In this document: positions 3-11,556 of the stretch, in pieces
How the letters are laid out: each line of letters opens with the position of its first letter
How positions within the stretch are numbered: position 1 is the first letter of the stretch
Notes under the pieces: generated by a model
The model's input: only the letters and a program-made list of their open reading frames with translations
The model's database searches: none
Told to the model about the DNA's origin: nothing
Made by a program: the position numbers and the translations under genes
Virus record (IMG/VR): IMGVR_UViG_2713897055_000008
Span: 1-11,556 of that record
Direction: 5' to 3' (one strand)
DNA: 11,556 bases
From: a virus
Lineage: Duplodnaviria > Heunggongvirae > Uroviricota > Caudoviricetes

Positions 3-491
<489 letters not shown>

Positions 492-2456: not shown

Positions 2457-3173
2457 ATGTCTGCTTTGTATGAACGCTCACAGCTGACGCAGGTGATGAT
2501 TTCATCTGCCCCGGCGACTGCTGAAACTATGGATAAGGCGGAATATCTGCGCCTGGACTGCACCATCAAGGAAGTCCAGTTCACCGCCGGTCAGAAACAG
2601 GATATTGATGTGACCACGCTCTGCTCCACAGAGCAGGAGAACATCAATGGTCTGGGGGCGTCGTCCGAGATTTCCATGTCGGGTAATTTTTATCTGAATC
2701 AGGCCCAGAACGCCCTGCGTGATGCTTATGACAATGACGCGTTGTATGCGTTTAAGGTGCTGTTTCCGTCCGGTAAGGGCTTTAAATTCCTGGCGGAAGT
2801 GCGCCAGCACACCTGGTCATCCGGTACCAACGGCGTGGTGGCTGCAACGTTCTCACTGCGTCTGAAAGGCAAACCGGTGTCCTTTGTGGTACCGCTGGCG
2901 TTTGTGAAAAATCTGGATAAGACACTTACCGTGAATACCGGTGTGCTGCTGACACTGTCAGTCAGTGCCAACGGGGGAACGCCGCCGTATAAATACGCCT
3001 GGAAGAAGGATGGTCAGCCGGTTGACGGGCAGACGACAGACACCTTCAGTAAGCCCGGTGCGCAGTCCGCTGATGCGGGGAAATATACCTGCGTGGTGAC
3101 CGATTCGGCAGAGAAAGCACAGAGTGTGACGTCTGTTGAATGCACCGTGACAGTGAGCGCAGCCGCCGGATAA
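2457..3173 (+). CDS. Major tail (tube) protein with C-terminal Ig-like domain
   Basis: ATG 2457 with CAGGAGG 5-7 nt upstream; the track's start at 2388 would run through the terminator hairpin. 238 aa. C-terminal ~80 aa (TLTVNTGVLLTLSVSANGGTPPYKYAWKKDGQPV...GKYTCVVTD...VECTVTV) looks like an Ig-like decoration domain. Position before the G/GT chaperone pair. Confidence 0.75.
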   Translation: MSALYERSQLTQVMISSAPATAETMDKAEYLRLDCTIKEVQFTAGQKQDIDVTTLCSTEQENINGLGASSEISMSGNFYLNQAQNALRDAYDNDALYAFKVLFPSGKGFKFLAEVRQHTWSSGTNGVVAATFSLRLKGKPVSFVVPLAFVKNLDKTLTVNTGVLLTLSVSANGGTPPYKYAWKKDGQPVDGQTTDTFSKPGAQSADAGKYTCVVTDSAEKAQSVTSVECTVTVSAAAG

Positions 3174-3187
3174 GGGGATGGGGCATC

Positions 3188-3562
3188 ATGAAAAAGGATC
3201 TGAAAACGCTGGCGCTGGCCAGACTGTCAGGGTTTCGTCATAAAACGGTGAAGGTGCCGGAATGGGGTAATGTCAGCGTGGTGCTGCGGGAGCCTTCGGC
3301 AGAGGCCTGGTATCTGTGGCAGGACGTGCTCAATGGTGATGGAGAGGATGACGATACCCTGTCGGTGGTGGCGAAAACCCGCCGTAACCTGGAAGCGGAT
3401 GTGACGCTGTTCTGCGATGTCCTGTGTGATACGGACCTGCAGCGGGTGTTCACTCCGGACGACCGTGAGCAGGTGCTGGCCGTCTATGGTCCGGTACATG
3501 CCCGGTTGCTGCGTCAGGCACTGGAACTGATCGCTGATGCAGAGTCGGCCAGAAAAAAGTAG
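3188..3562 (+). CDS. Tail assembly chaperone (lambda gpG analogue)
   Basis: ATG 3188 (MKKDLKTL...) with a G-rich Shine-Dalgarno; acidic ~124-aa protein placed between major tail and tape measure genes; ends AAA AAG TAG on a slippery heptamer. Confidence 0.7.
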   Translation: MKKDLKTLALARLSGFRHKTVKVPEWGNVSVVLREPSAEAWYLWQDVLNGDGEDDDTLSVVAKTRRNLEADVTLFCDVLCDTDLQRVFTPDDREQVLAVYGPVHARLLRQALELIADAESARKK

Positions 3563-3867
3563 CCCGCCCGGAAATTCGCTTTCTGATGCGACTTGCGCTC
3601 CGTCTGGGGCGCACCTTATCCGAACTGCGGCACAGCCTGAGTGCGAGCGAGGCGATGATGTGGATGGAGTTCGACAGGATATCCCCGCTGGGTGATGAGC
3701 GCGGGGATATCCGTAATGCACAGATCGTGAAAGCGGTTTTCGGGGCACAGGGGATGAATGTTGCACTGAAGGACGCCATGCTCTGCTGGGGCGAGGATGA
3801 GGATAAGCCGGAGGTGGATCCGTTTGCGGCGCTGGAAGACGCGCTGAGCTTTGCAGCACAGTCATGA
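3188..3867 (+). CDS. Tail assembly chaperone fusion (gpGT analogue) made by a -1 programmed frameshift at 3553-3559
   Basis: The -1 frame is open from the slippery site A AAA AAG (3553-3559) to TGA 3865-3867 with no stops; the frame relationship (2 to 1) matches the conserved G/GT arrangement of siphovirus tail chaperones. Coordinates span both frames. Confidence 0.6.
3553..3559 (+). promoter_or_regulatory. -1 ribosomal frameshift slippery heptamer A AAA AAG
   Basis: Read directly: aga aaa aag tag in the G frame; the heptamer is the last two sense codons before the G stop. Confidence 0.6.
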
Positions 3868-3876
3868 ATGATGAGA

Positions 3877-3896
3877 ACCGCTGAGGCGGTTTTTTT
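3877..3896 (+). terminator. Weak intrinsic-terminator-like hairpin between GT and tape-measure gene
   Basis: ACCGC (3877-3881), loop TGAG, GCGGT (3886-3890), then a run of six T (3891-3896). Confidence 0.35.
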
Positions 3897-3914
3897 ACGC
3901 CCGGAGAAAGGTGA

Positions 3915-5831
3915 ATGGCGACGTTACGTGAACTGATTATCAAAATTTCGGCAAATTCACAGTCATTCCAGTCGGAGATCCAGCGGGCGTCCCGTATGGG
4001 CAGTGAATATTACCGGACCCTGCAGAATGGCGGACGTCAGGCTGCTGCGGCAGCCAGGGAGCAGCGCCGGGCTCTGGCTGAGCTGAACAGCCAGTTGATG
4101 GAAATCCGCGCTTCGGCTGTCGGAATGACCGGTGCGGTTGCCGGTGCCTTTGCCACCGGACACCTGATTTCGCTGGCGGATGAATGGAGCTCCGTGAACG
4201 CCCGTCTGAAACAGGCGTCGCAGTCATCGGATGAATTTGCGTCATCACAGAAAGTACTGATGGATATCAGCCAGCGGACAGGCACCGCATTTTCGGATAA
4301 TGCGGCCCTGTTTGCCCGTTCGGCTGCCTCGATGCGTGAATATGGTTACAGTGCTGATGATGTGCTGAAGGTGACAGAGGCCATTTCGACAGGGCTGAAA
4401 ATTTCCGGTGCCAGTACGGCAGAGGCGGGGTCGGTGATCACCCAGTTCAGCCAGGCGCTGGCACAGGGTGTGTTACGCGGTGAGGAATTTAATTCGGTCA
4501 ATGAAAGTGGGGACCGGATCATTCGCGCACTGGCTGCAGGCATGGGCGTGGCCCGTAAAGATCTGAAGGCGATGGCGGACGATGGTCAACTGACGGCGGA
4601 TAAAGTCGTTCCCGCGTTAATCAGCCAGCTGGGGATATTGCGTGATGAATATGCAGCCATGCCGGAAACGGTGGCTGACGGGATCACGAAGGTGGAAAAC
4701 GCCTTTATGGCCTGGGTGGGTGGCGCGAATGAGGCCAGCGGAGCGACGAAAACGCTCTCCGGCGTGCTGAACGGTGTGGCCGGAAATATCGATACCGTGG
4801 CAACAGCTGCGGGTGTGCTGGTTGCTGTCGGGGTGGCCCGGTACTTTGGCAATATGGCATCCGGTGTGGGAAAGGCCACGACAGAACTGCTTGCTGCGAA
4901 GTCTGGCACTGTTGCCCTGGCAGCGGCGCAGGCAGATGCTGCGGTTCAGGTGCAACGTAAGGCGGCGGCTGACGCTCTGGCGGCAGAACGTGCCTGGCAA
5001 CTGGCACAGGCAGAACTCGCCGTGGCCAGAAATACCAGTGCGGAGGCGCTGGTCACACAGAATGCCGTCGCAAAACGTCGGGCCATGATTGTGGCCAATG
5101 CTGCACTGGTGCAGTCGAATCATGCAGTGGCGGCCTCGGGGAAGGCGCTGGAGAATGCCACGTCGGTTACGGGAATGCTGAAAAGTGGCGCTGCATCCCT
5201 GCTTTCTCTGGTCGGCGGGATACCCGGTTTACTGATGCTTGGGGCCGGTGCCTGGTACACGGTGTACCAGCGTCAGGAACAGGCCAGGGAGTCCGCGCGC
5301 CAGTATGCATCGACGATTGATGAAATCCGGGCAAAGCTGCCAGGAATGACCCTTCCGGAACTGGCTGATAATGAGGGTAAAACCCGCGAAGCACTGGAAG
5401 AGCAGAATCGTCTGATTGCTGAGCAGGAAAGTAAAGTCCGGGGACTGAAAACACAGATTGCTGACTATCAGCGCTGGCTGCAGGAAAATCCACAGGGTGG
5501 TTCAGGTGCGGAGATTATAACCCACGGCCTTGCTGAGGCAACCGGCAGGCTGGCGGTTGAACAGTCACGACTGACACAGATGCAGGAAAGGGCGAGGTCT
5601 GTACAGGAAACGCTGGCGTCACTGGAGTACAACCGTGTAGCGAGGATACGTGAGGAGGCGGCAGAGCAGAACAGGGCATACCAGGCATTACTGCAGATGA
5701 ATGTTCAGCATACGGAATTCAACCGCCTGCTGGGGCTGGGTAATGAACTGCTGCAACAGCGTCAGGGACTGGCGAGTGTACCGCTGCGACTGCCACAGGC
5801 CACTCTGGATGATAAACAGCAGGCGCCCTGA
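3915..5831 (+). CDS. H: Tail tape measure protein, N-terminal segment (frame 3)
   Basis: ATG 3915 with GGAG 8 nt upstream; 638 aa, Ala/Gln-rich and largely helical, with an N-terminal region typical of lambda-family tape measure proteins; ends at TGA 5829-5831 straight after a CCC run. Confidence 0.85.
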   Translation: MATLRELIIKISANSQSFQSEIQRASRMGSEYYRTLQNGGRQAAAAAREQRRALAELNSQLMEIRASAVGMTGAVAGAFATGHLISLADEWSSVNARLKQASQSSDEFASSQKVLMDISQRTGTAFSDNAALFARSAASMREYGYSADDVLKVTEAISTGLKISGASTAEAGSVITQFSQALAQGVLRGEEFNSVNESGDRIIRALAAGMGVARKDLKAMADDGQLTADKVVPALISQLGILRDEYAAMPETVADGITKVENAFMAWVGGANEASGATKTLSGVLNGVAGNIDTVATAAGVLVAVGVARYFGNMASGVGKATTELLAAKSGTVALAAAQADAAVQVQRKAAADALAAERAWQLAQAELAVARNTSAEALVTQNAVAKRRAMIVANAALVQSNHAVAASGKALENATSVTGMLKSGAASLLSLVGGIPGLLMLGAGAWYTVYQRQEQARESARQYASTIDEIRAKLPGMTLPELADNEGKTREALEEQNRLIAEQESKVRGLKTQIADYQRWLQENPQGGSGAEIITHGLAEATGRLAVEQSRLTQMQERARSVQETLASLEYNRVARIREEAAEQNRAYQALLQMNVQHTEFNRLLGLGNELLQQRQGLASVPLRLPQATLDDKQQAP

Positions 5832-7180
5832 ATAACACAGAGCGTCAACTTGCCCTGTCCCGGCTGAAAGGGGAAGAAAAAGAGCGTGCCCGGCTGGGGT
5901 ATGCGGCGGATGACCTTGGTCTGGTGGGGGATACGTATCAGGAGGCGAGGCAGCGTTACATCCGTAATTCGATGGAAGCCTGGCGCAATAATGAGGCGAA
6001 TAAACCCAAATCCCGGGCCGGAAAATCAGGGGCGGAAAAAGCGGAAGACAGTTTTTCCCGTCTGCTGAAGCAGCAGAAGGAACAACTGGCACTGGCCGGG
6101 AAGAATACAGAACTGGCGAAGCTGAAGTACCAGACCTCGCAGGGCGAGCTGAAAACCCTGACGGAGATTCAGAAGCAGGAGCTGCTGCGCAATGCTGCCC
6201 TGATTGACCAGAAGAAAATCCGGGAGCAGTTACGGGCCCGGGAGGAGACCCTGAAAAATGATAATGCAGACGCAAGGGCATCAAATGACGCAGAGCTGCT
6301 GGGATACGGGCAGGGTGAGCGGATCCGAGAACGGATGCGGGAGCTGCAGCAGATTCGTGACGGCTACCGCCAGAAGGATGCGGACCTGCAGTCTCAGTAT
6401 CAGACAGGGGATATCAGTGAGGATTTTTACAGACAGGCGCTGGCGCAGAATGCGCAGTATCTGAGAGAGCGTCTGAAAGACCAGGAGGCTTTTTATGCCG
6501 AATCGGATGCGCAGCGTGCTGACTGGCAGAAAGGGCTGCAGGAAGGGCTAAGTAACTGGGTGGACAGCGCATCAGATTACGCTTCACAGGCAGCACAGCT
6601 TGCGACAGACGGTATCTCAGGGATGGTAAATAACATCACGGATATGCTGAACGGAAATAAAGTGGAATGGCGCAGCTGGGCAGCATCAATCCTGCAGGAA
6701 ATATCAAAAGTCCTTATGAATGCGGCCATTGTCAACGGCATTAAGATGGCGGCAAACAGTATGTCCGGTGCAGGAGGATTTTTCGGCAGTATAGGCAACT
6801 GGCTGGGTGGCGCGGTGGCAAATGCAAAAGGCGGCGTTTATACCTCGGCAAACCTGAGTGCATACAGTAACAGTATTGTGGACACGCCCACGTACTTTGC
6901 CTTTGCAAAAGGGGCAGGGCTGATGGGGGAGGCCGGACCTGAAGCCATAATGCCCCTGACCCGGGCAGCGGATGGTTCACTCGGCGTGCGTGCGGTGGGC
7001 AGTATGAACGGCAGTGCGGGTCTGGTGTATTCTCCGGTGTACCACATCGCCATTCAGAATGACGGCGCTAACGGGCAGATAGGGCCGGAAGCGGCGGGCA
7101 CCCTTGTGCAACTGATTGACCAGCGGGTACAGGCGGTGATGTTATCCATGCGTCGTGACGGAGGAATGCTGAGTGGATGA
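5816..7180 (+). CDS. H: Tail tape measure protein, C-terminal segment (frame 2; no credible independent start)
   Basis: Frame 2 is open from 5816, overlapping the end of the frame-3 segment; first in-frame start is a GTG at 5924 with no Shine-Dalgarno. The C-terminal part (GGVYTSANLSAYSNSIVDTPTYFAFAKGAGLMGEAGPEAIMPL...) resembles the lambda gpH C-terminal region as I recall it. TGA 7178-7180 overlaps the M start. Confidence 0.8.
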   Translation, partial: TAGALNNTERQLALSRLKGEEKERARLGYAADDLGLVGDTYQEARQRYIRNSMEAWRNNEANKPKSRAGKSGAEKAEDSFSRLLKQQKEQLALAGKNTELAKLKYQTSQGELKTLTEIQKQELLRNAALIDQKKIREQLRAREETLKNDNADARASNDAELLGYGQGERIRERMRELQQIRDGYRQKDADLQSQYQTGDISEDFYRQALAQNAQYLRERLKDQEAFYAESDAQRADWQKGLQEGLSNWVDSASDYASQAAQLATDGISGMVNNITDMLNGNKVEWRSWAASILQEISKVLMNAAIVNGIKMAANSMSGAGGFFGSIGNWLGGAVANAKGGVYTSANLSAYSNSIVDTPTYFAFAKGAGLMGEAGPEAIMPLTRAADGSLGVRAVGSMNGSAGLVYSPVYHIAIQNDGANGQIGPEAAGTLVQLIDQRVQAVMLSMRRDGGMLSG

Positions 7181-9508: not shown

Positions 9509-9512
9509 AAAT

Positions 9513-9547
9513 AAAAAAAAATCCCGCAGTGCTCTGTAGCTGCGGGA
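9513..9547 (-). terminator. Intrinsic-terminator-like element, minus-strand orientation (unit 1)
   Basis: Stem TCCCGCAG (9522-9529) / CTGCGGGA (9540-9547), 10-nt loop; on the minus strand it is followed by nine T (9513-9521). Confidence 0.55.
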
Positions 9548-9644
9548 AGAGATACGAAGATTAACTTTAAGGAATTTTTCATTATTCTGGCAGATGAACT
9601 GTAACGCAGCGTGATTATGAGCACTACAGTCAGTGTGCGGAAAT

Positions 9645-9671
9645 GTGAATAAACTCAGAATTTTTATTCAC
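9645..9671. repeat. Perfect 9-bp inverted repeat GTGAATAAA-N9-TTTATTCAC (unit 1)
   Basis: Read directly; degenerate in units 2 and 4. Confidence 0.5.
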
Positions 9672-9734
9672 GGGAAGGGAGGGGCCGGATATCGGTGGCA
9701 GAGGACAGAAGGCATCATGCCGGGTTCAGGGGAT

Positions 9735-9767
9735 AAAAAAAATCCCGCAGTACTCCGTGCTGCGGGA
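9735..9767 (-). terminator. Intrinsic-terminator-like element, minus-strand orientation (unit 2)
   Basis: Stem 9743-9750 / 9760-9767 (same 8-bp sequence as unit 1), 9-nt loop; eight T on the minus strand (9735-9742). Confidence 0.55.
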
Positions 9768-9958
9768 AGAGAACGATGTTGACTAACCTGTTGGCGTTTT
9801 ATTTTTATTGACCCGAAGAAACTGTAACCTGCCGGAATGCACTCTGCCACGGAGAATGACGGAAAATGTGAAGAAAATCAGAGTTTTTATTTATCCCGTA
9901 CATTCGTCTCTGGCGACAGAGTGGCGTCAGTAATGTCCGTGATACTGAGGGGGGAATT

Positions 9959-9997
9959 AAAAAATCTCCCGTAATACACCTGGATATTGACGGGAGA
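9959..9997 (-). terminator. Terminator-like hairpin, minus-strand orientation (unit 3, variant stem)
   Basis: Stem TCTCCCGT (9965-9972) / ACGGGAGA (9990-9997) with an inner AATA/TATT extension; six T on the minus strand (9959-9964). Different stem sequence from the other units but same fold. Confidence 0.4.
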
Positions 9998-10099
9998 AAC
10001 GAATAGTCACCTTAAGGAGTAGTTTTGATTATTGCCTGTAATCAGCGGGCGAATTGTAACGTATGGTGATTATGAGTGCCACAGGTAATTTGCAGAAAT

Positions 10100-10126
10100 G
10101 TGAATAAATTCAGAATTTTTATTCAC
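10100..10126. repeat. Perfect 9-bp inverted repeat GTGAATAAA-N9-TTTATTCAC (unit 3)
   Basis: Read directly; identical arms and spacing to the unit-1 copy. Confidence 0.5.
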
Positions 10127-10188
10127 AGGAAGGGGCTGCGGGATATCGGTGGCAGAGGACAGAAAATATCAGGCCGGGTTTAAGGGAT

Positions 10189-10222
10189 AAAAAAATCCCG
10201 CAGAGTCAGCGGAGCTGCGGGA
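10189..10222 (-). terminator. Intrinsic-terminator-like element, minus-strand orientation (unit 4)
   Basis: Stem 10196-10203 / 10215-10222 (TCCCGCAG/CTGCGGGA), 11-nt loop; seven T on the minus strand (10189-10195). Confidence 0.55.
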
Positions 10223-10395
10223 GAGAACGATGAAGATTAACGTTATGGAGTTATTTTTCAGGCATCAAAAAAGTAACGCAGCGTCATTATTGCGGCTACA
10301 GGCAATTTGCAGAAATGTGAAGAATTTCAGAAATTTTATTCCGTCATGACACAGGCACCTCCGGGGTGCCTGTTGTTTTTGGGCATAAACAGATT

Positions 10396-10422
10396 CAGAC
10401 ATCAGACATCAGACATCAGACA
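10396..10422 (+). repeat. Heptanucleotide microsatellite (CAGACAT) x ~3.9 just upstream of the J ribosome-binding site
   Basis: Read directly: cagacat cagacat cagacat cagaca, followed by GGAGAGGGGG and the GTG start at 10438. Confidence 0.8.
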
Positions 10423-10437
10423 GGAGAGGGGGACAGA

Positions 10438-11556
10438 GTGGGTAAAGGGGGCGGCAAGGGGCACACACCGCGTGAGGCGAAGGACAATCTCAAATCCACG
10501 CAGATGATGAGCGTGATTGATGCCATTGGTGAGGGACCGGTGGAAGGCCCGGTGAAGGGACTGCAGAGTATTCTGGTGAACAAAACCCCGCTGACGGACA
10601 CGGACGGTAATCCCGTGATACACGGTGTGACCGCCGTCTGGCGTGCCGGGGAGCAGGAGCAGACACCGCCGGAAGGCTTTGAGTCCTCCGGGGCAGAAAC
10701 CGCACTGGGCGTGGAGGTGTCGAAGGCAAAGCCGGTGACGCGCACCATCACGTCAGCGAACATTGACCGTCTGCGGGTCACCTTCGGGGTGCAGTCACTG
10801 GTGGAGACCACCTCAAAGGGTGACCGTAATCCCTCTTCTGTCCGCCTGCTGATTCAGCTTGAGCGTAACGGTAACTGGGTGACGGAGAAGGATGTCACCA
10901 TTAACGGCAAGACCACCTCGCAGTACCTGACGTCGGTGATTCTGAATAATCTCCCTGAGCGCCCCTTTAACATCCGGATGGTCAGGGAGACGGCGGACAG
11001 CACCACGGACCAGCTGCAGAACAGAACGCTGTGGTCGTCATACACCGAAATCATCGATGTGAAACAGTGCTACCCGAACACGGCCATTGTGGGGCTGCAG
11101 GTGGATGCGGAGCAGTTCGGTGGCCAGCAGCTGACGGTGAACTACCATATCCGTGGTCGCATCATTCAGGTGCCGTCAAACTATGACCCGGAAAAACGCA
11201 CCTACAGCGGTATCTGGGACGGCAGCCTGAAACCGGCATACAGCAATAACCCGGCCTGGTGCCTGTGGGACATGCTGACCCACCCGCGCTACGGGATGGG
11301 AAAACGCCTGGGGGCCGCGGATGTGGACAAGTGGGCACTGTATGCCATCGGGCAGTACTGCGACCAGACGGTCCCGGATGGTTTCGGGGGCACAGAGCCG
11401 CGGATGACCTTTAATGCGTACCTGTCACAGCAGCGTAAGGTGTGGGATGTCCTGGGGGATTTCTGCTCGGCGATGCGCTGTATGCCGGTATGGAACGGTC
11501 AGACGCTGACGTTCGTTCAGGACCGTCCGTCGGATGTGGTGTGGCCGTACACGAAC
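10438..11556 (+). CDS. J: Tail tip / host specificity protein J, N-terminal 373 codons (continues past window end)
   Basis: GTG 10438 preceded by GGAGAGGGGG. Translation (M)GKGGGKGHTPREAKDNLKSTQMMSVIDAIGEGPVEGPV...WCLWDMLTHPRYGMGKRLG... is near-identical to the lambda J N-terminus as recalled. Absent from the ORF track because there is no stop inside the window. Confidence 0.93.
   Translation, partial: MGKGGGKGHTPREAKDNLKSTQMMSVIDAIGEGPVEGPVKGLQSILVNKTPLTDTDGNPVIHGVTAVWRAGEQEQTPPEGFESSGAETALGVEVSKAKPVTRTITSANIDRLRVTFGVQSLVETTSKGDRNPSSVRLLIQLERNGNWVTEKDVTINGKTTSQYLTSVILNNLPERPFNIRMVRETADSTTDQLQNRTLWSSYTEIIDVKQCYPNTAIVGLQVDAEQFGGQQLTVNYHIRGRIIQVPSNYDPEKRTYSGIWDGSLKPAYSNNPAWCLWDMLTHPRYGMGKRLGAADVDKWALYAIGQYCDQTVPDGFGGTEPRMTFNAYLSQQRKVWDVLGDFCSAMRCMPVWNGQTLTFVQDRPSDVVWPYTN

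What the first reader, a model, noticed from the sequence alone, without database searches (positions are those of the whole stretch)
3553..3867. G/GT programmed -1 frameshift with an A AAA AAG slippery site directly before the G stop
The chaperone ORF ends AGA AAA AAG TAG. A AAA AAG is among the most efficient -1 slippery heptamers in E. coli (the dnaX type, from established knowledge), and the -1 frame is open from it for ~100 further codons to 3867. This matches the conserved G/GT frameshift of long-tailed phage chaperones, but with a different heptamer from the G GGA AAG I recall for lambda.
Basis: partly seen in the sequence, partly recalled or inferred. Interest (0 to 1): 0.45.

Follow-up and report, generated by a model that had tools for sequence, protein, structure and literature searches.

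The report
Known phage tail-chaperone G/GT frameshift site
This is the ordinary, already documented -1 ribosomal frameshift that lets a long-tailed E. coli prophage make a short tail-assembly chaperone and a rarer extended version from one message; a published reporter assay measured about 7% shifting on an insert whose printed 75 bases are identical to this site.

Summary
The chaperone ORF (3188-3562, 124 aa) ends AGA AAA AAG TAG. The heptamer A_AAA_AAG lies at 3553-3559. The -1 frame is open from 3538 to the TGA at 3865-3867, which predicts a 226-aa fusion.

The G part belongs to Pfam Phage_TAC_1, the family of HK97 gp13 (PDB 2OB9). The -1 part belongs to Phage_tail_T, the family of lambda T. 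The pair sits between the major tail gene and the tape measure gene of a lambdoid, Stx-phage-type E. coli prophage.

Across 11 diverged phages and 80 viral contigs, every distinct junction keeps an in-frame A_AAG slip site with a -1 T extension. Most carry A_AAA_AAG.

The case is already published. Antonov et al. 2013 cloned an insert whose printed 75 nt are identical to window 3533-3607 and measured 7% -1 frameshifting in E. coli. Sharma et al. 2014 list the orthologous Sakai gene ECs1801 as a known A_AAA_AAG case.

I found no dnaX-like stimulators. The different heptamer from lambda is normal variation: the two heptamers perform alike in E. coli reporters.

Verdict: real, correctly interpreted, already known, low interest.

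The parts
3188..3562 (+). Gene G analogue: tail assembly chaperone, 124 aa, the zero-frame product (orthologue of HK97 gp13 and Sakai ECs1801)
   Evidence: Translation. Pfam PF06222 Phage_TAC_1, E 1.6e-61, full length. phrog_344 tail assembly chaperone, E 1.5e-46. PDB 2OB9 'Tail assembly chaperone', E 1.1e-45. 62% identical to HK97 gp13. About 98% nt identity to Sakai ECs_1801/1802. A G-rich Shine-Dalgarno-like stretch (AAGGGGATGGGG) precedes the ATG.
3553..3559 (+). Slippery heptamer A_AAA_AAG (zero-frame codons AAA 3554-3556 and AAG 3557-3559)
   Evidence: Sequence. Kept in 18 of the 23 distinct junction sequences of relatives; the A_AAG part is kept in all 23. Lies inside the published insert that gave 7% -1 frameshifting.
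3560..3562 (+). G stop codon TAG (followed by C), directly after the heptamer; a possible but unproven contributor to slippage
   Evidence: Sequence. The stop is 0 nt from the heptamer in all E. coli-type junctions and in Proteus phage Pm34, but 3 to 33 nt away in other family members.
3559..3867 (+). T segment: -1 frame extension, 102 codons plus TGA 3865-3867, made only as the C-terminal part of the 226-aa GT fusion
   Evidence: Translation. Pfam PF06223 Phage_tail_T, E 2.6e-19. phrog_337. phrog_14766, a 224-position profile, matches G at profile positions 2-122 and T at 125-224, so G and T are contiguous in it. P128 (invariant), F132 (nearly invariant) and L133 (9 of 11 sequences) lie upstream of the ATG at 3586.
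3538..3559 (+). Overlap window in which both the zero frame and the -1 frame are open (22 nt); the slip must occur here
   Evidence: a -1 frame stop TGA at 3535-3537, and the G stop at 3560.
3586..3588 (+). ATG in the -1 frame (Met134 of GT), used by database annotation as the start of a separate 'T' gene; more likely an internal Met
   Evidence: No Shine-Dalgarno-like sequence in the 25 nt upstream (agcccgcccggaaattcgctttctg), unlike five of the six other gene starts examined, the one at 2047 being the exception. The Met is invariant in the family as part of the motif FLMxLALRxGRT.
2457..3173 (+). Major tail subunit gene (V analogue, with an Ig-like domain), upstream neighbour and presumed binding partner of the T domain
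   Evidence: Annotation transferred from phage 2851 and E. coli STEC1588.
3915..7180 (+). Tape measure gene (H analogue), downstream neighbour and presumed client of G and GT; split in this window into ORFs 3915-5831 and 5924-7180
   Evidence: Annotation transfer. ORF list. A 1-nt deletion after 5822 relative to STEC1588.

Best explanation
This is the G/GT programmed -1 ribosomal frameshift of a long-tailed (siphovirus, HK97/lambda-type) E. coli prophage.

Most ribosomes translate the chaperone gene to TAG 3560-3562 and release the 124-aa protein G. A minority slip back one base on A_AAA_AAG (3553-3559). The tRNA-Lys pair re-pairs from AAA-AAG to AAA-AAA, decoding resumes at GTA (3559), and the ribosome runs on to TGA 3865-3867. 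The product is a 226-aa GT protein.

By analogy with lambda, G and the G part of GT coat the tape measure protein. The T domain recruits the major tail subunit. Neither protein ends up in the virion.

What is shown and what is inferred:
- Shown here: the sequence anatomy, the family membership of both halves, the gene order and the conservation of the slip site.
- Shown in the literature: about 7% -1 shifting in E. coli on an insert whose printed 75 nt are identical to the window.
- Inferred: the tRNA-level mechanism, the resulting G:GT ratio of roughly 13:1, and the assembly role, which was tested in lambda and not in this phage.
For: 1. Anatomy: zero frame ...AGA AAA AAG TAG, -1 frame open 3538-3867.
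2. Both halves are the expected families: PF06222 (E 1.6e-61) and PF06223 (E 2.6e-19). A PHROG profile of 224 positions covers G and T contiguously. PDB 2OB9 'Tail assembly chaperone' matches at E 1.1e-45.
3. Gene order is major tail, G, T, tape measure, in a prophage 99.5% identical to Stx phages 2851 and YYZ-2008.
4. HK97 gp13/gp14, 62% identical, is annotated in GenBank as 'translated due to a -1 frameshift'. Bcep176 gp69/gp69' (36% identical) is annotated as a joined frameshift CDS and has the same A_AAA_AAG.
5. In 11 diverged phages and 80 IMG/VR loci, all 23 distinct junctions keep an in-frame A_AAG with a -1 T extension of 92-103 codons beyond the G stop. Eighteen have A_AAA_AAG. The slip codon is always AAG, never the synonymous AAA.
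6. The -1 frame codons between the slip site and ATG 3586 encode conserved residues (P128 invariant, F132 nearly invariant). That ATG has no Shine-Dalgarno sequence.
7. Antonov et al. 2013 (PMC3711429, Table S2, cluster Phage_TAC, frameshift ID 15618692): the printed 75-nt insert is identical to window 3533-3607 and gave 7% +/-0.79 -1 frameshifting in a GST-MBP reporter in E. coli. A G_GGA_AAG relative gave 6%. This cluster is not among those the paper lists as showing internal initiation.
8. Sharma et al. 2014 (PMC4066793, Tables S4, S7 and S8): cluster A_AAA_AAG_25, represented by ECs1801 'tail assembly chaperone; [true]'. Sakai ECs_1801/1802 is about 98% identical to the window, with an identical junction.
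9. The role of G and GT in lambda is reviewed in PMC5009743.
Against: - No protein-level evidence exists for this particular prophage. The published figure comes from a reporter whose full insert also carried 18 nt upstream and 45 nt downstream that I could not compare with the window.
- The measured 7% is far above the 0.29% found for a bare A_AAA_AAG in a different reporter, so something in the context may stimulate slippage. I found no stimulator. There is no SD-like element upstream. Folding z-scores are -1.54 and +0.39. The one conserved hairpin starts 35 nt downstream and shows no covariation.
- Databases annotate T as a separate gene.
- The tape measure gene is split in this window, so the system may no longer build tails in this host.
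Confidence: 0.95

Rival explanations
1. T is a separate gene translated independently from ATG 3586 (93 aa), as RefSeq and GenBank annotate it, with no frameshift needed.
For: An in-frame ATG exists at 3586 and is invariant across the family. PGAP and submitters annotate 'phage tail assembly protein T' or 'tail protein' as its own CDS. Sakai ECs_1802 is annotated from an even later start.
Against: - There is no Shine-Dalgarno-like sequence in the 25 nt upstream, whereas five of the six other gene starts examined have a purine-rich one.
- The -1 frame codons upstream of the ATG encode conserved residues (P128 invariant, F132 nearly invariant).
- A slip site in the right frame is conserved in all 23 distinct junctions.
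- Lambda T has no Met at the corresponding place.
- A GST-containing fusion product was measured for the identical printed insert, and the Phage_TAC cluster is not among those reported to show internal initiation.
Confidence: 0.03
2. The fusion arises by transcriptional slippage: RNA polymerase adds one A in the A6 run (3553-3558), so a fraction of mRNAs encode GT in a single frame.
For: A-runs support transcriptional realignment. The phi467-type relatives carry 8 consecutive A. Antonov et al. note that poly-A sites can act at the transcription level.
Against: - The run here is only 6 A. Per Antonov et al., runs of more than 7 A or more than 8 T are the ones implicated in transcriptional realignment.
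- Relatives with G_GGA_AAG, G_GAA_AAG or A_GCA_AAG have only 3-4 A yet keep the same arrangement.
- The register of the motif relative to the zero frame, and the use of AAG rather than AAA, are conserved. These matter for ribosomal slippage but not for polymerase slippage.
- The direction is uniformly -1.
Confidence: 0.02

Closest known systems
HK97 gp13/gp14 tail assembly chaperone frameshift (GenBank AF069529; gp13 structure PDB 2OB9)
   Same: Same protein families in both halves (PF06222 and PF06223). G parts are 62% identical. Same gene order, same -1 direction, same A-site slip codon A_AAG, and the same T-segment start (V-x-x-P-x-x-x-F-L-M-x-L-A-L-R).
   Different: In the zero frame HK97 reads G_GAA_AAG, which is not a canonical X_XXY_YYZ heptamer, and its G stop lies 15 nt downstream. 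The window reads A_AAA_AAG with the stop adjacent. HK97 has a moron gene (gp15) between gp14 and the tape measure gene, and the window has none.
E. coli O157:H7 Sakai prophage Sp9 ECs1801/ECs1802 (cluster A_AAA_AAG_25 of Sharma et al. 2014; Phage_TAC cluster of Antonov et al. 2013)
   Same: About 98% nt identity over G and T, and an identical slip-site region. The printed 75 nt of the published reporter insert are identical to window 3533-3607.
   Different: A few substitutions, mostly near the 5' end of G and the 3' end of T. It sits in a different host genome and a different prophage copy.
Bacteriophage lambda G/GT frameshift (Levin, Hendrix and Casjens 1993; Xu, Hendrix and Duda 2004, 2013, 2014)
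   Same: Same logic and gene position. The T domain belongs to the same Pfam family, PF06223. Both are low-level -1 shifts on an N_NNA_AAG heptamer with no known strong stimulator. The two heptamers have the same intrinsic efficiency in E. coli reporters.
   Different: Lambda uses G_GGA_AAG with the G stop 15 nt downstream. Lambda G belongs to a different Pfam family (PF06894), with no BLASTP similarity to the window's G. The T segments are also not alignable by BLASTP. The lambda molar ratio is given as 30:1, against about 13:1 inferred here from the 7% reporter value.
E. coli dnaX gamma/tau frameshift signal
   Same: Identical heptamer A_AAA_AAG, relying on the single E. coli tRNA-Lys that pairs weakly with AAG (Tsuchihashi and Brown 1992, cited in PMC4066793).
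   Different: dnaX has an upstream SD-like stimulator and a downstream hairpin and shifts at about 50%. Here there is no SD, no supported hairpin at the right distance, and about 7%. In dnaX the shifted product is the shorter one; here it is the longer one.

Membership tests
Tail assembly chaperone G/GT -1 programmed frameshift of long-tailed phages (Xu, Hendrix and Duda 2004) | Two overlapping ORFs located between the major tail protein gene and the tape measure gene | tested here: met
   V analogue 2457-3173, G 3188-3562, T frame 3538-3867, tape measure from 3915.
Tail assembly chaperone G/GT -1 programmed frameshift of long-tailed phages (Xu, Hendrix and Duda 2004) | A slippery sequence in the zero-frame register inside the overlap, so that a -1 shift joins the two ORFs | tested here: met
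   A_AAA_AAG at 3553-3559 within the 22-nt overlap 3538-3559.
Tail assembly chaperone G/GT -1 programmed frameshift of long-tailed phages (Xu, Hendrix and Duda 2004) | The arrangement and slip site are conserved in diverged relatives | tested here: met
   All 23 distinct junctions from 11 phages and 80 IMG/VR loci keep an in-frame A_AAG and a -1 extension of 92-103 codons beyond the G stop.
Tail assembly chaperone G/GT -1 programmed frameshift of long-tailed phages (Xu, Hendrix and Duda 2004) | The downstream ORF has no translation start signals of its own and is expressed only as a fusion | tested here: inconclusive
   There is no SD before ATG 3586, and residues upstream of it are conserved. 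An invariant ATG is present, however, and independent initiation cannot be excluded by sequence alone.
Tail assembly chaperone G/GT -1 programmed frameshift of long-tailed phages (Xu, Hendrix and Duda 2004) | The frameshift fusion product is actually made at a low, fixed proportion | not testable with these tools
   Literature: an insert whose printed 75 nt are identical to window 3533-3607 gave 7% +/-0.79 in a GST-MBP reporter in E. coli (PMC3711429 Table S2). Not measured for the native prophage.
Pfam PF06222 Phage_TAC_1 (HK97 gp13-like chaperones) | Full-length match above the gathering score | tested here: met
   206.1 bits against a cut-off of 25, residues 1-124 on profile positions 1-124. 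HK97 gp13 hits the same family. PDB 2OB9, E 1.1e-45.
Pfam PF06223 Phage_tail_T (lambda T-like domain) | Match of the -1 frame segment above the gathering score | tested here: met
   69.9 bits against a cut-off of 25.9, residues 28-98 of the T segment. Lambda T hits the same family at 54.1 bits.
Pfam PF06894 Phage_TAC_2 (lambda G family) | Sequence membership of the G part | tested here: not met
   Only PF06222 is hit. Lambda G hits PF06894. BLASTP of window G against lambda G gives E 3.3. The window works like lambda G but is not a member of its sequence family.
dnaX-type frameshift signal | Heptamer A_AAA_AAG | tested here: met
   Positions 3553-3559.
dnaX-type frameshift signal | SD-like stimulator about 10 nt upstream of the heptamer | tested here: not met
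   The upstream sequence GCTGATGCAGAGTCGGCC has no GGAG/AGGA-type element. Sharma et al. Table S8 lists no SD for cluster A_AAA_AAG_25.
dnaX-type frameshift signal | Stable hairpin 5-6 nt downstream of the heptamer | tested here: not met
   Folding z-scores are -1.54 (3560-3640) and +0.39 (3520-3680). The only conserved helix begins 35 nt downstream and has no compensatory changes. Sharma et al. give ddG 0.020 +/- 0.023 for the predicted hairpin. Rfam finds nothing.

The most novel reading that the evidence does not exclude
The natural site shifts at about 7%. A bare A_AAA_AAG gave 0.29% in a different E. coli reporter, and no RNA stimulator is detectable. So the in-frame stop codon directly after the heptamer (UAG followed by C) may itself be the stimulator in this clade. 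While termination is slow, the P-site tRNA-Lys would slip from AAG to AAA: a 'shifty stop', single-tRNA route rather than the tandem slip. The invariance of only the A_AAG tetramer across the family fits this. The 6% measured for a relative whose stop is one codon further away, and family members with stops 15-33 nt away, argue against it. Differences between the two reporter systems could explain the whole discrepancy.
Probability: 0.15. Interest if true: 0.25.

Novelty: already known. Interest (0 to 1): 0.08.

Why it matters
It has little importance as a discovery. The G/GT frameshift is a textbook feature of long-tailed phages, and this allele has been catalogued (Sharma et al. 2014) and measured (Antonov et al. 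2013).

Its practical value is for annotation. RefSeq and GenBank records of this very common E. coli prophage family still list T as an independent 93-aa or 69-aa gene. They should carry a joined CDS with ribosomal slippage encoding a 226-aa GT protein.

A small open point remains: what raises slippage from the bare-heptamer level to several percent when no recognisable stimulator is present.

Tried and rejected
- Downstream stimulatory RNA structure. Single-sequence folds are not better than shuffles. The alignment fold of 11 homologues gives only a helix 35 nt downstream. It is made of invariant codons for ALRxGR and has no compensatory changes. Rejected as unsupported.
- Known RNA families. 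The Rfam gathering scan of the whole window found nothing.
- Homology to lambda G and T by BLASTP. None was found. The link to lambda T exists only at profile level.
- A scan of one genome per species (genome contigs) with the single GT protein found no relatives. I used the phage collection and IMG/VR instead.
- NCBIfam has no model that hits GT.
- My automatic junction script misplaced the overlap for Bcep176 (L005), because its -1 frame is open far upstream. The analysis, which starts from the annotated G start, is the one used for that phage.
- The consensus terminator scan did not call the hairpin after T, although a fold shows one.
- I did not run the large protein searches, structure prediction or fold search. 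The family assignment and a solved homologue (2OB9) already settle identity.

Full report
**1. Observation**

The ORF that starts at ATG 3188 ends ...GCC AGA AAA AAG TAG, with the stop at 3560-3562. It encodes 124 aa. The heptamer A_AAA_AAG occupies 3553-3559 in the X_XXY_YYZ register of that frame.

The -1 frame has a TGA at 3535-3537 and is then open to TGA 3865-3867. Both frames are therefore open together only in a 22-nt stretch that contains the heptamer. A slip on the heptamer, with G3559 read again, adds 102 codons and gives a 226-aa product. ATG 3586 lies in the -1 frame.

A heptamer alone is at chance level. AAAAAAG occurs 4 times on both strands against 1.06 expected, and 8 of 200 shuffles do as well. 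The window's genes hold 10 in-frame canonical heptamers in 2940 codons. Only the one at 3553 sits in the last codons of its gene, and only its -1 frame runs on past the zero-frame stop; that 102-codon extension carries a protein domain.

**2. What the two frames encode, and where**

The 124-aa product is a full-length member of Pfam PF06222, Phage_TAC_1 (206 bits, E 1.6e-61). The -1 segment contains PF06223, Phage_tail_T (69.9 bits, E 2.6e-19).

In PHROGs the two halves hit phrog_344 (tail assembly chaperone) and phrog_337. Both also hit phrog_14766, a profile of 224 positions: G on positions 2-122 and T on positions 125-224. That profile is therefore one of fused G-T proteins. The solved structure 2OB9, 'Tail assembly chaperone', matches G at E 1.1e-45.

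The window is 99.5% identical to long-tailed Stx and lambdoid phages of E. coli (phage 2851, YYZ-2008 and many Stx1a/Stx2 phages). It is 98.6% identical to a prophage of E. coli STEC1588.

Transferred annotation gives the gene order: portal, head-tail connectors, tail terminator, major tail subunit (2457-3173), G, T, tape measure (from 3915), then the M, L, K, I and J analogues. This is the canonical position of the G/GT pair.

**3. Comparative evidence**

tblastn with G finds 199 phage records, down to 32% identity, in Escherichia, Klebsiella, Cronobacter, Proteus, Serratia, Salmonella, Bordetella and Burkholderia phages.

HK97 gp13 is 62% identical. In GenBank, HK97 gp14 is a joined CDS 'translated due to a -1 frameshift'. 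Burkholderia phage Bcep176 gp69/gp69' is likewise annotated as the lambda G and T equivalents with an alternative C-terminus.

I located the G stop, the -1 frame window and the in-frame slip motifs in ten relatives and in lambda:

| Zero-frame motif | Where found |
|---|---|
| A_AAA_AAG | window, phi467, Pm34, OS31, Bcep176, PHB09, phi644-2 |
| G_GGA_AAG | mEp390, lambda |
| G_GAA_AAG | HK97, ENT39118 |
| A_GCA_AAG | Klebsiella phage 1 LV-2017 |

A profile-guided scan of IMG/VR added 80 loci. Together the data give 23 distinct junction sequences in which the automatic analysis placed the overlap correctly. All 23 have an in-frame A_AAG, and 18 have A_AAA_AAG (for Bcep176). The bases on either side vary.

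The slip codon is always AAG and never the synonymous AAA. That is expected if slippage of tRNA-Lys from AAG to AAA is the selected property.

The fused proteins align throughout. Between the slip site and Met134 (the ATG at 3586), P128 is invariant, F132 is nearly invariant and L133 is present in 9 of 11 sequences. The -1 frame is therefore read as protein upstream of that ATG.

The ATG has no Shine-Dalgarno-like sequence in the 25 nt before it. Five of the six other gene starts examined in the window do have one, the exception being the start at 2047.

**4. Published experimental evidence on this sequence**

Antonov et al. 2013 (PMC3711429) report a 'phage tail assembly chaperone' cluster of 41 predicted frameshift genes similar to an HK97 protein. 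Two of them tested in E. coli gave 6% and 7%.

Their Table S2 prints the inserts. [quoted passage not shown] This 75-mer matches window 3533-3607 exactly. The real insert also carried 18 nt upstream and 45 nt downstream, which are not printed.

The cluster is not in the paper's list of clusters that showed internal initiation or translational coupling.

Sharma et al. 2014 (PMC4066793) list the prophage cluster A_AAA_AAG_25 (53 genes, representative ECs1801, 'tail assembly chaperone; [true]'), that is, an expected known case. It corresponds to GeneTack cluster #10.

I fetched Sakai prophage Sp9. ECs_1801/ECs_1802 are about 98% identical to window 3188-3867, and the junction is identical.

**5. 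Mechanism**

The best-supported mechanism is ribosomal -1 slippage on A_AAA_AAG. E. coli has a single tRNA-Lys (anticodon mnm5s2UUU) that pairs weakly with AAG. This is established knowledge for dnaX (Tsuchihashi and Brown 1992, cited; figure legend).

The resemblance to dnaX ends at the heptamer:
- There is no SD-like element upstream (Sharma Table S8).
- Folds of 3560-3640 and 3520-3680 are not better than shuffles (z -1.54 and +0.39).
- The consensus fold of 11 homologues keeps only a hairpin that begins 35 nt after the heptamer. It is built from invariant codons for A-L-R-x-G-R and has no compensatory changes.
- Sharma et al. found the predicted hairpin of this cluster no more stable than the local average (ddG 0.020 +/- 0.023).
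- Rfam finds nothing.

In Sharma's lacZ reporter, A_AAA_AAG and lambda's G_GGA_AAG behave alike. They give 0.29 and 0.28% without a stimulator, 4.3 and 3.8% with the IS911 stimulator, and 39 and 43% with the IS3 pseudoknot.

The gap between 0.29% (bare motif, lacZ reporter) and 7% (natural context, GST-MBP reporter) is unexplained. It may reflect the different assays, or a contribution of the adjacent stop codon. I rate the stop-codon idea as possible but weak. The relative whose stop lies one codon further away gave 6%, and other family members have the stop 15-33 nt away.

The biological role follows lambda. G and the G part of GT bind the tape measure protein, the T domain binds the major tail subunit, the G:GT ratio (30:1 in lambda) matters, and neither protein is in the virion (review PMC5009743). 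This role is inferred by homology of T and by analogy for G. It was not tested in this phage.

**6. Rivals**

- Independent translation of T from ATG 3586 is what the databases annotate. It is contradicted by the missing SD, the conserved upstream residues, the conserved slip site and the measured fusion product.
- Transcriptional slippage is unlikely. The run is only six A, and relatives with three or four A keep the arrangement, the register and the AAG codon.
- A chance arrangement or a pseudogene frameshift is excluded by the conservation.

**7. Comparison and novelty**

The site is a member of the HK97 gp13/gp14-type G/GT frameshift. It works like lambda G/GT. Its T domain is in lambda T's Pfam family, but its G part is not in lambda G's family (PF06894).

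The exact allele is in the literature, both as a catalogued case and as a measured one. Novelty: already known. Interest is low. The residual value is the correction of annotation and the minor question of what sets the several-percent efficiency.

**8. Other things seen**

Relative to STEC1588 the window carries several single-base indels. One, after 5822, splits the tape measure gene into 3915-5831 and 5924-7180. Others lie in homopolymers (G8 at about 808, A8 at 9735). This copy is therefore either a decaying prophage or an assembly with indel errors. G and T themselves are intact. Further minor items are listed under things noticed in passing.

Noticed in passing
window 3915-7180 (break near 5822-5831): The tape measure gene is split into two ORFs (3915-5831, 638 aa; 5924-7180, 418 aa). 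Relative to the intact 3267-nt gene of E. coli STEC1588, the window lacks one A after 5822 (CAGCAG-GCGCCC against CAGCAGAGCGCCC). It is either a real inactivating frameshift (defective prophage) or a sequencing error. It is not at a slippery site.
   Followed up: partly
window ~808, 2404, 9735, 10357: Further 1-nt indels against STEC1588: G8 against G7 at about 808, which shortens the 3' end of the portal-like gene (ORF ends at 848); a missing C at 2404 (intergenic); A8 against A7 at 9735; and a missing C at 10357. At least two are plain homopolymer-length differences.
   Followed up: partly
window 162-454: A 162-nt tandem repeat of 1.8 copies at 93% identity, inside the C-terminal part of the large portal-like gene. 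Related repeat copies also occur in phage 2851 and STEC1588.
   Followed up: no
window 10395-10422: A perfect heptanucleotide repeat, TCAGACA x4, just upstream of the start of the tail tip gene J. STEC1588 has five copies (a 7-nt length difference). It is a variable-number repeat in a leader region.
   Followed up: no
window 3873-3897: A hairpin (AGAACCGCU / GGCGGUUUU stem, dG -10.8 kcal/mol, z -1.57) followed by a U run lies between the T stop and the tape measure start, like an intrinsic terminator or attenuator. HK97 has an annotated terminator just upstream of its tape measure gene, after the gp15 moron. The consensus scan did not call the window hairpin.
   Followed up: partly
window 9509-10440: About 930 nt between the tail assembly protein I analogue (ends 9508) and gene J have no ORF of 100 aa or more, and the corresponding stretch of the STEC1588 RefSeq record has no annotated feature. 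The stretch contains a GC-rich hairpin followed by a T-rich stretch near 10353-10380.
   Followed up: no
L004 1063-1069 (HK97); L009 1066-1072; L010 1090-1096: In the zero frame HK97 and Cronobacter phage ENT39118 read G_GAA_AAG, and Klebsiella phage 1 LV-2017 reads A_GCA_AAG. None is a canonical X_XXY_YYZ heptamer. Only the A_AAG tetramer is invariant across the family, which suggests the A-site or single-tRNA slip is the essential part.
   Followed up: partly
window 3586-3867; L001 6487-6768; L003 3925-4206; L095 30472-30681: Public records annotate T as a free-standing gene (93 aa, or 69 aa for Sakai ECs_1802) and not as a ribosomal-slippage CDS. Of the records inspected here, only HK97 and Bcep176 carry the joined feature.
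   Followed up: yes
window 4868-4874: An in-frame G_GGA_AAG heptamer (lambda's slip sequence) lies inside the tape measure gene. Its -1 frame closes after 28 codons, well before the zero-frame stop, so it is probably a chance occurrence.
   Followed up: no
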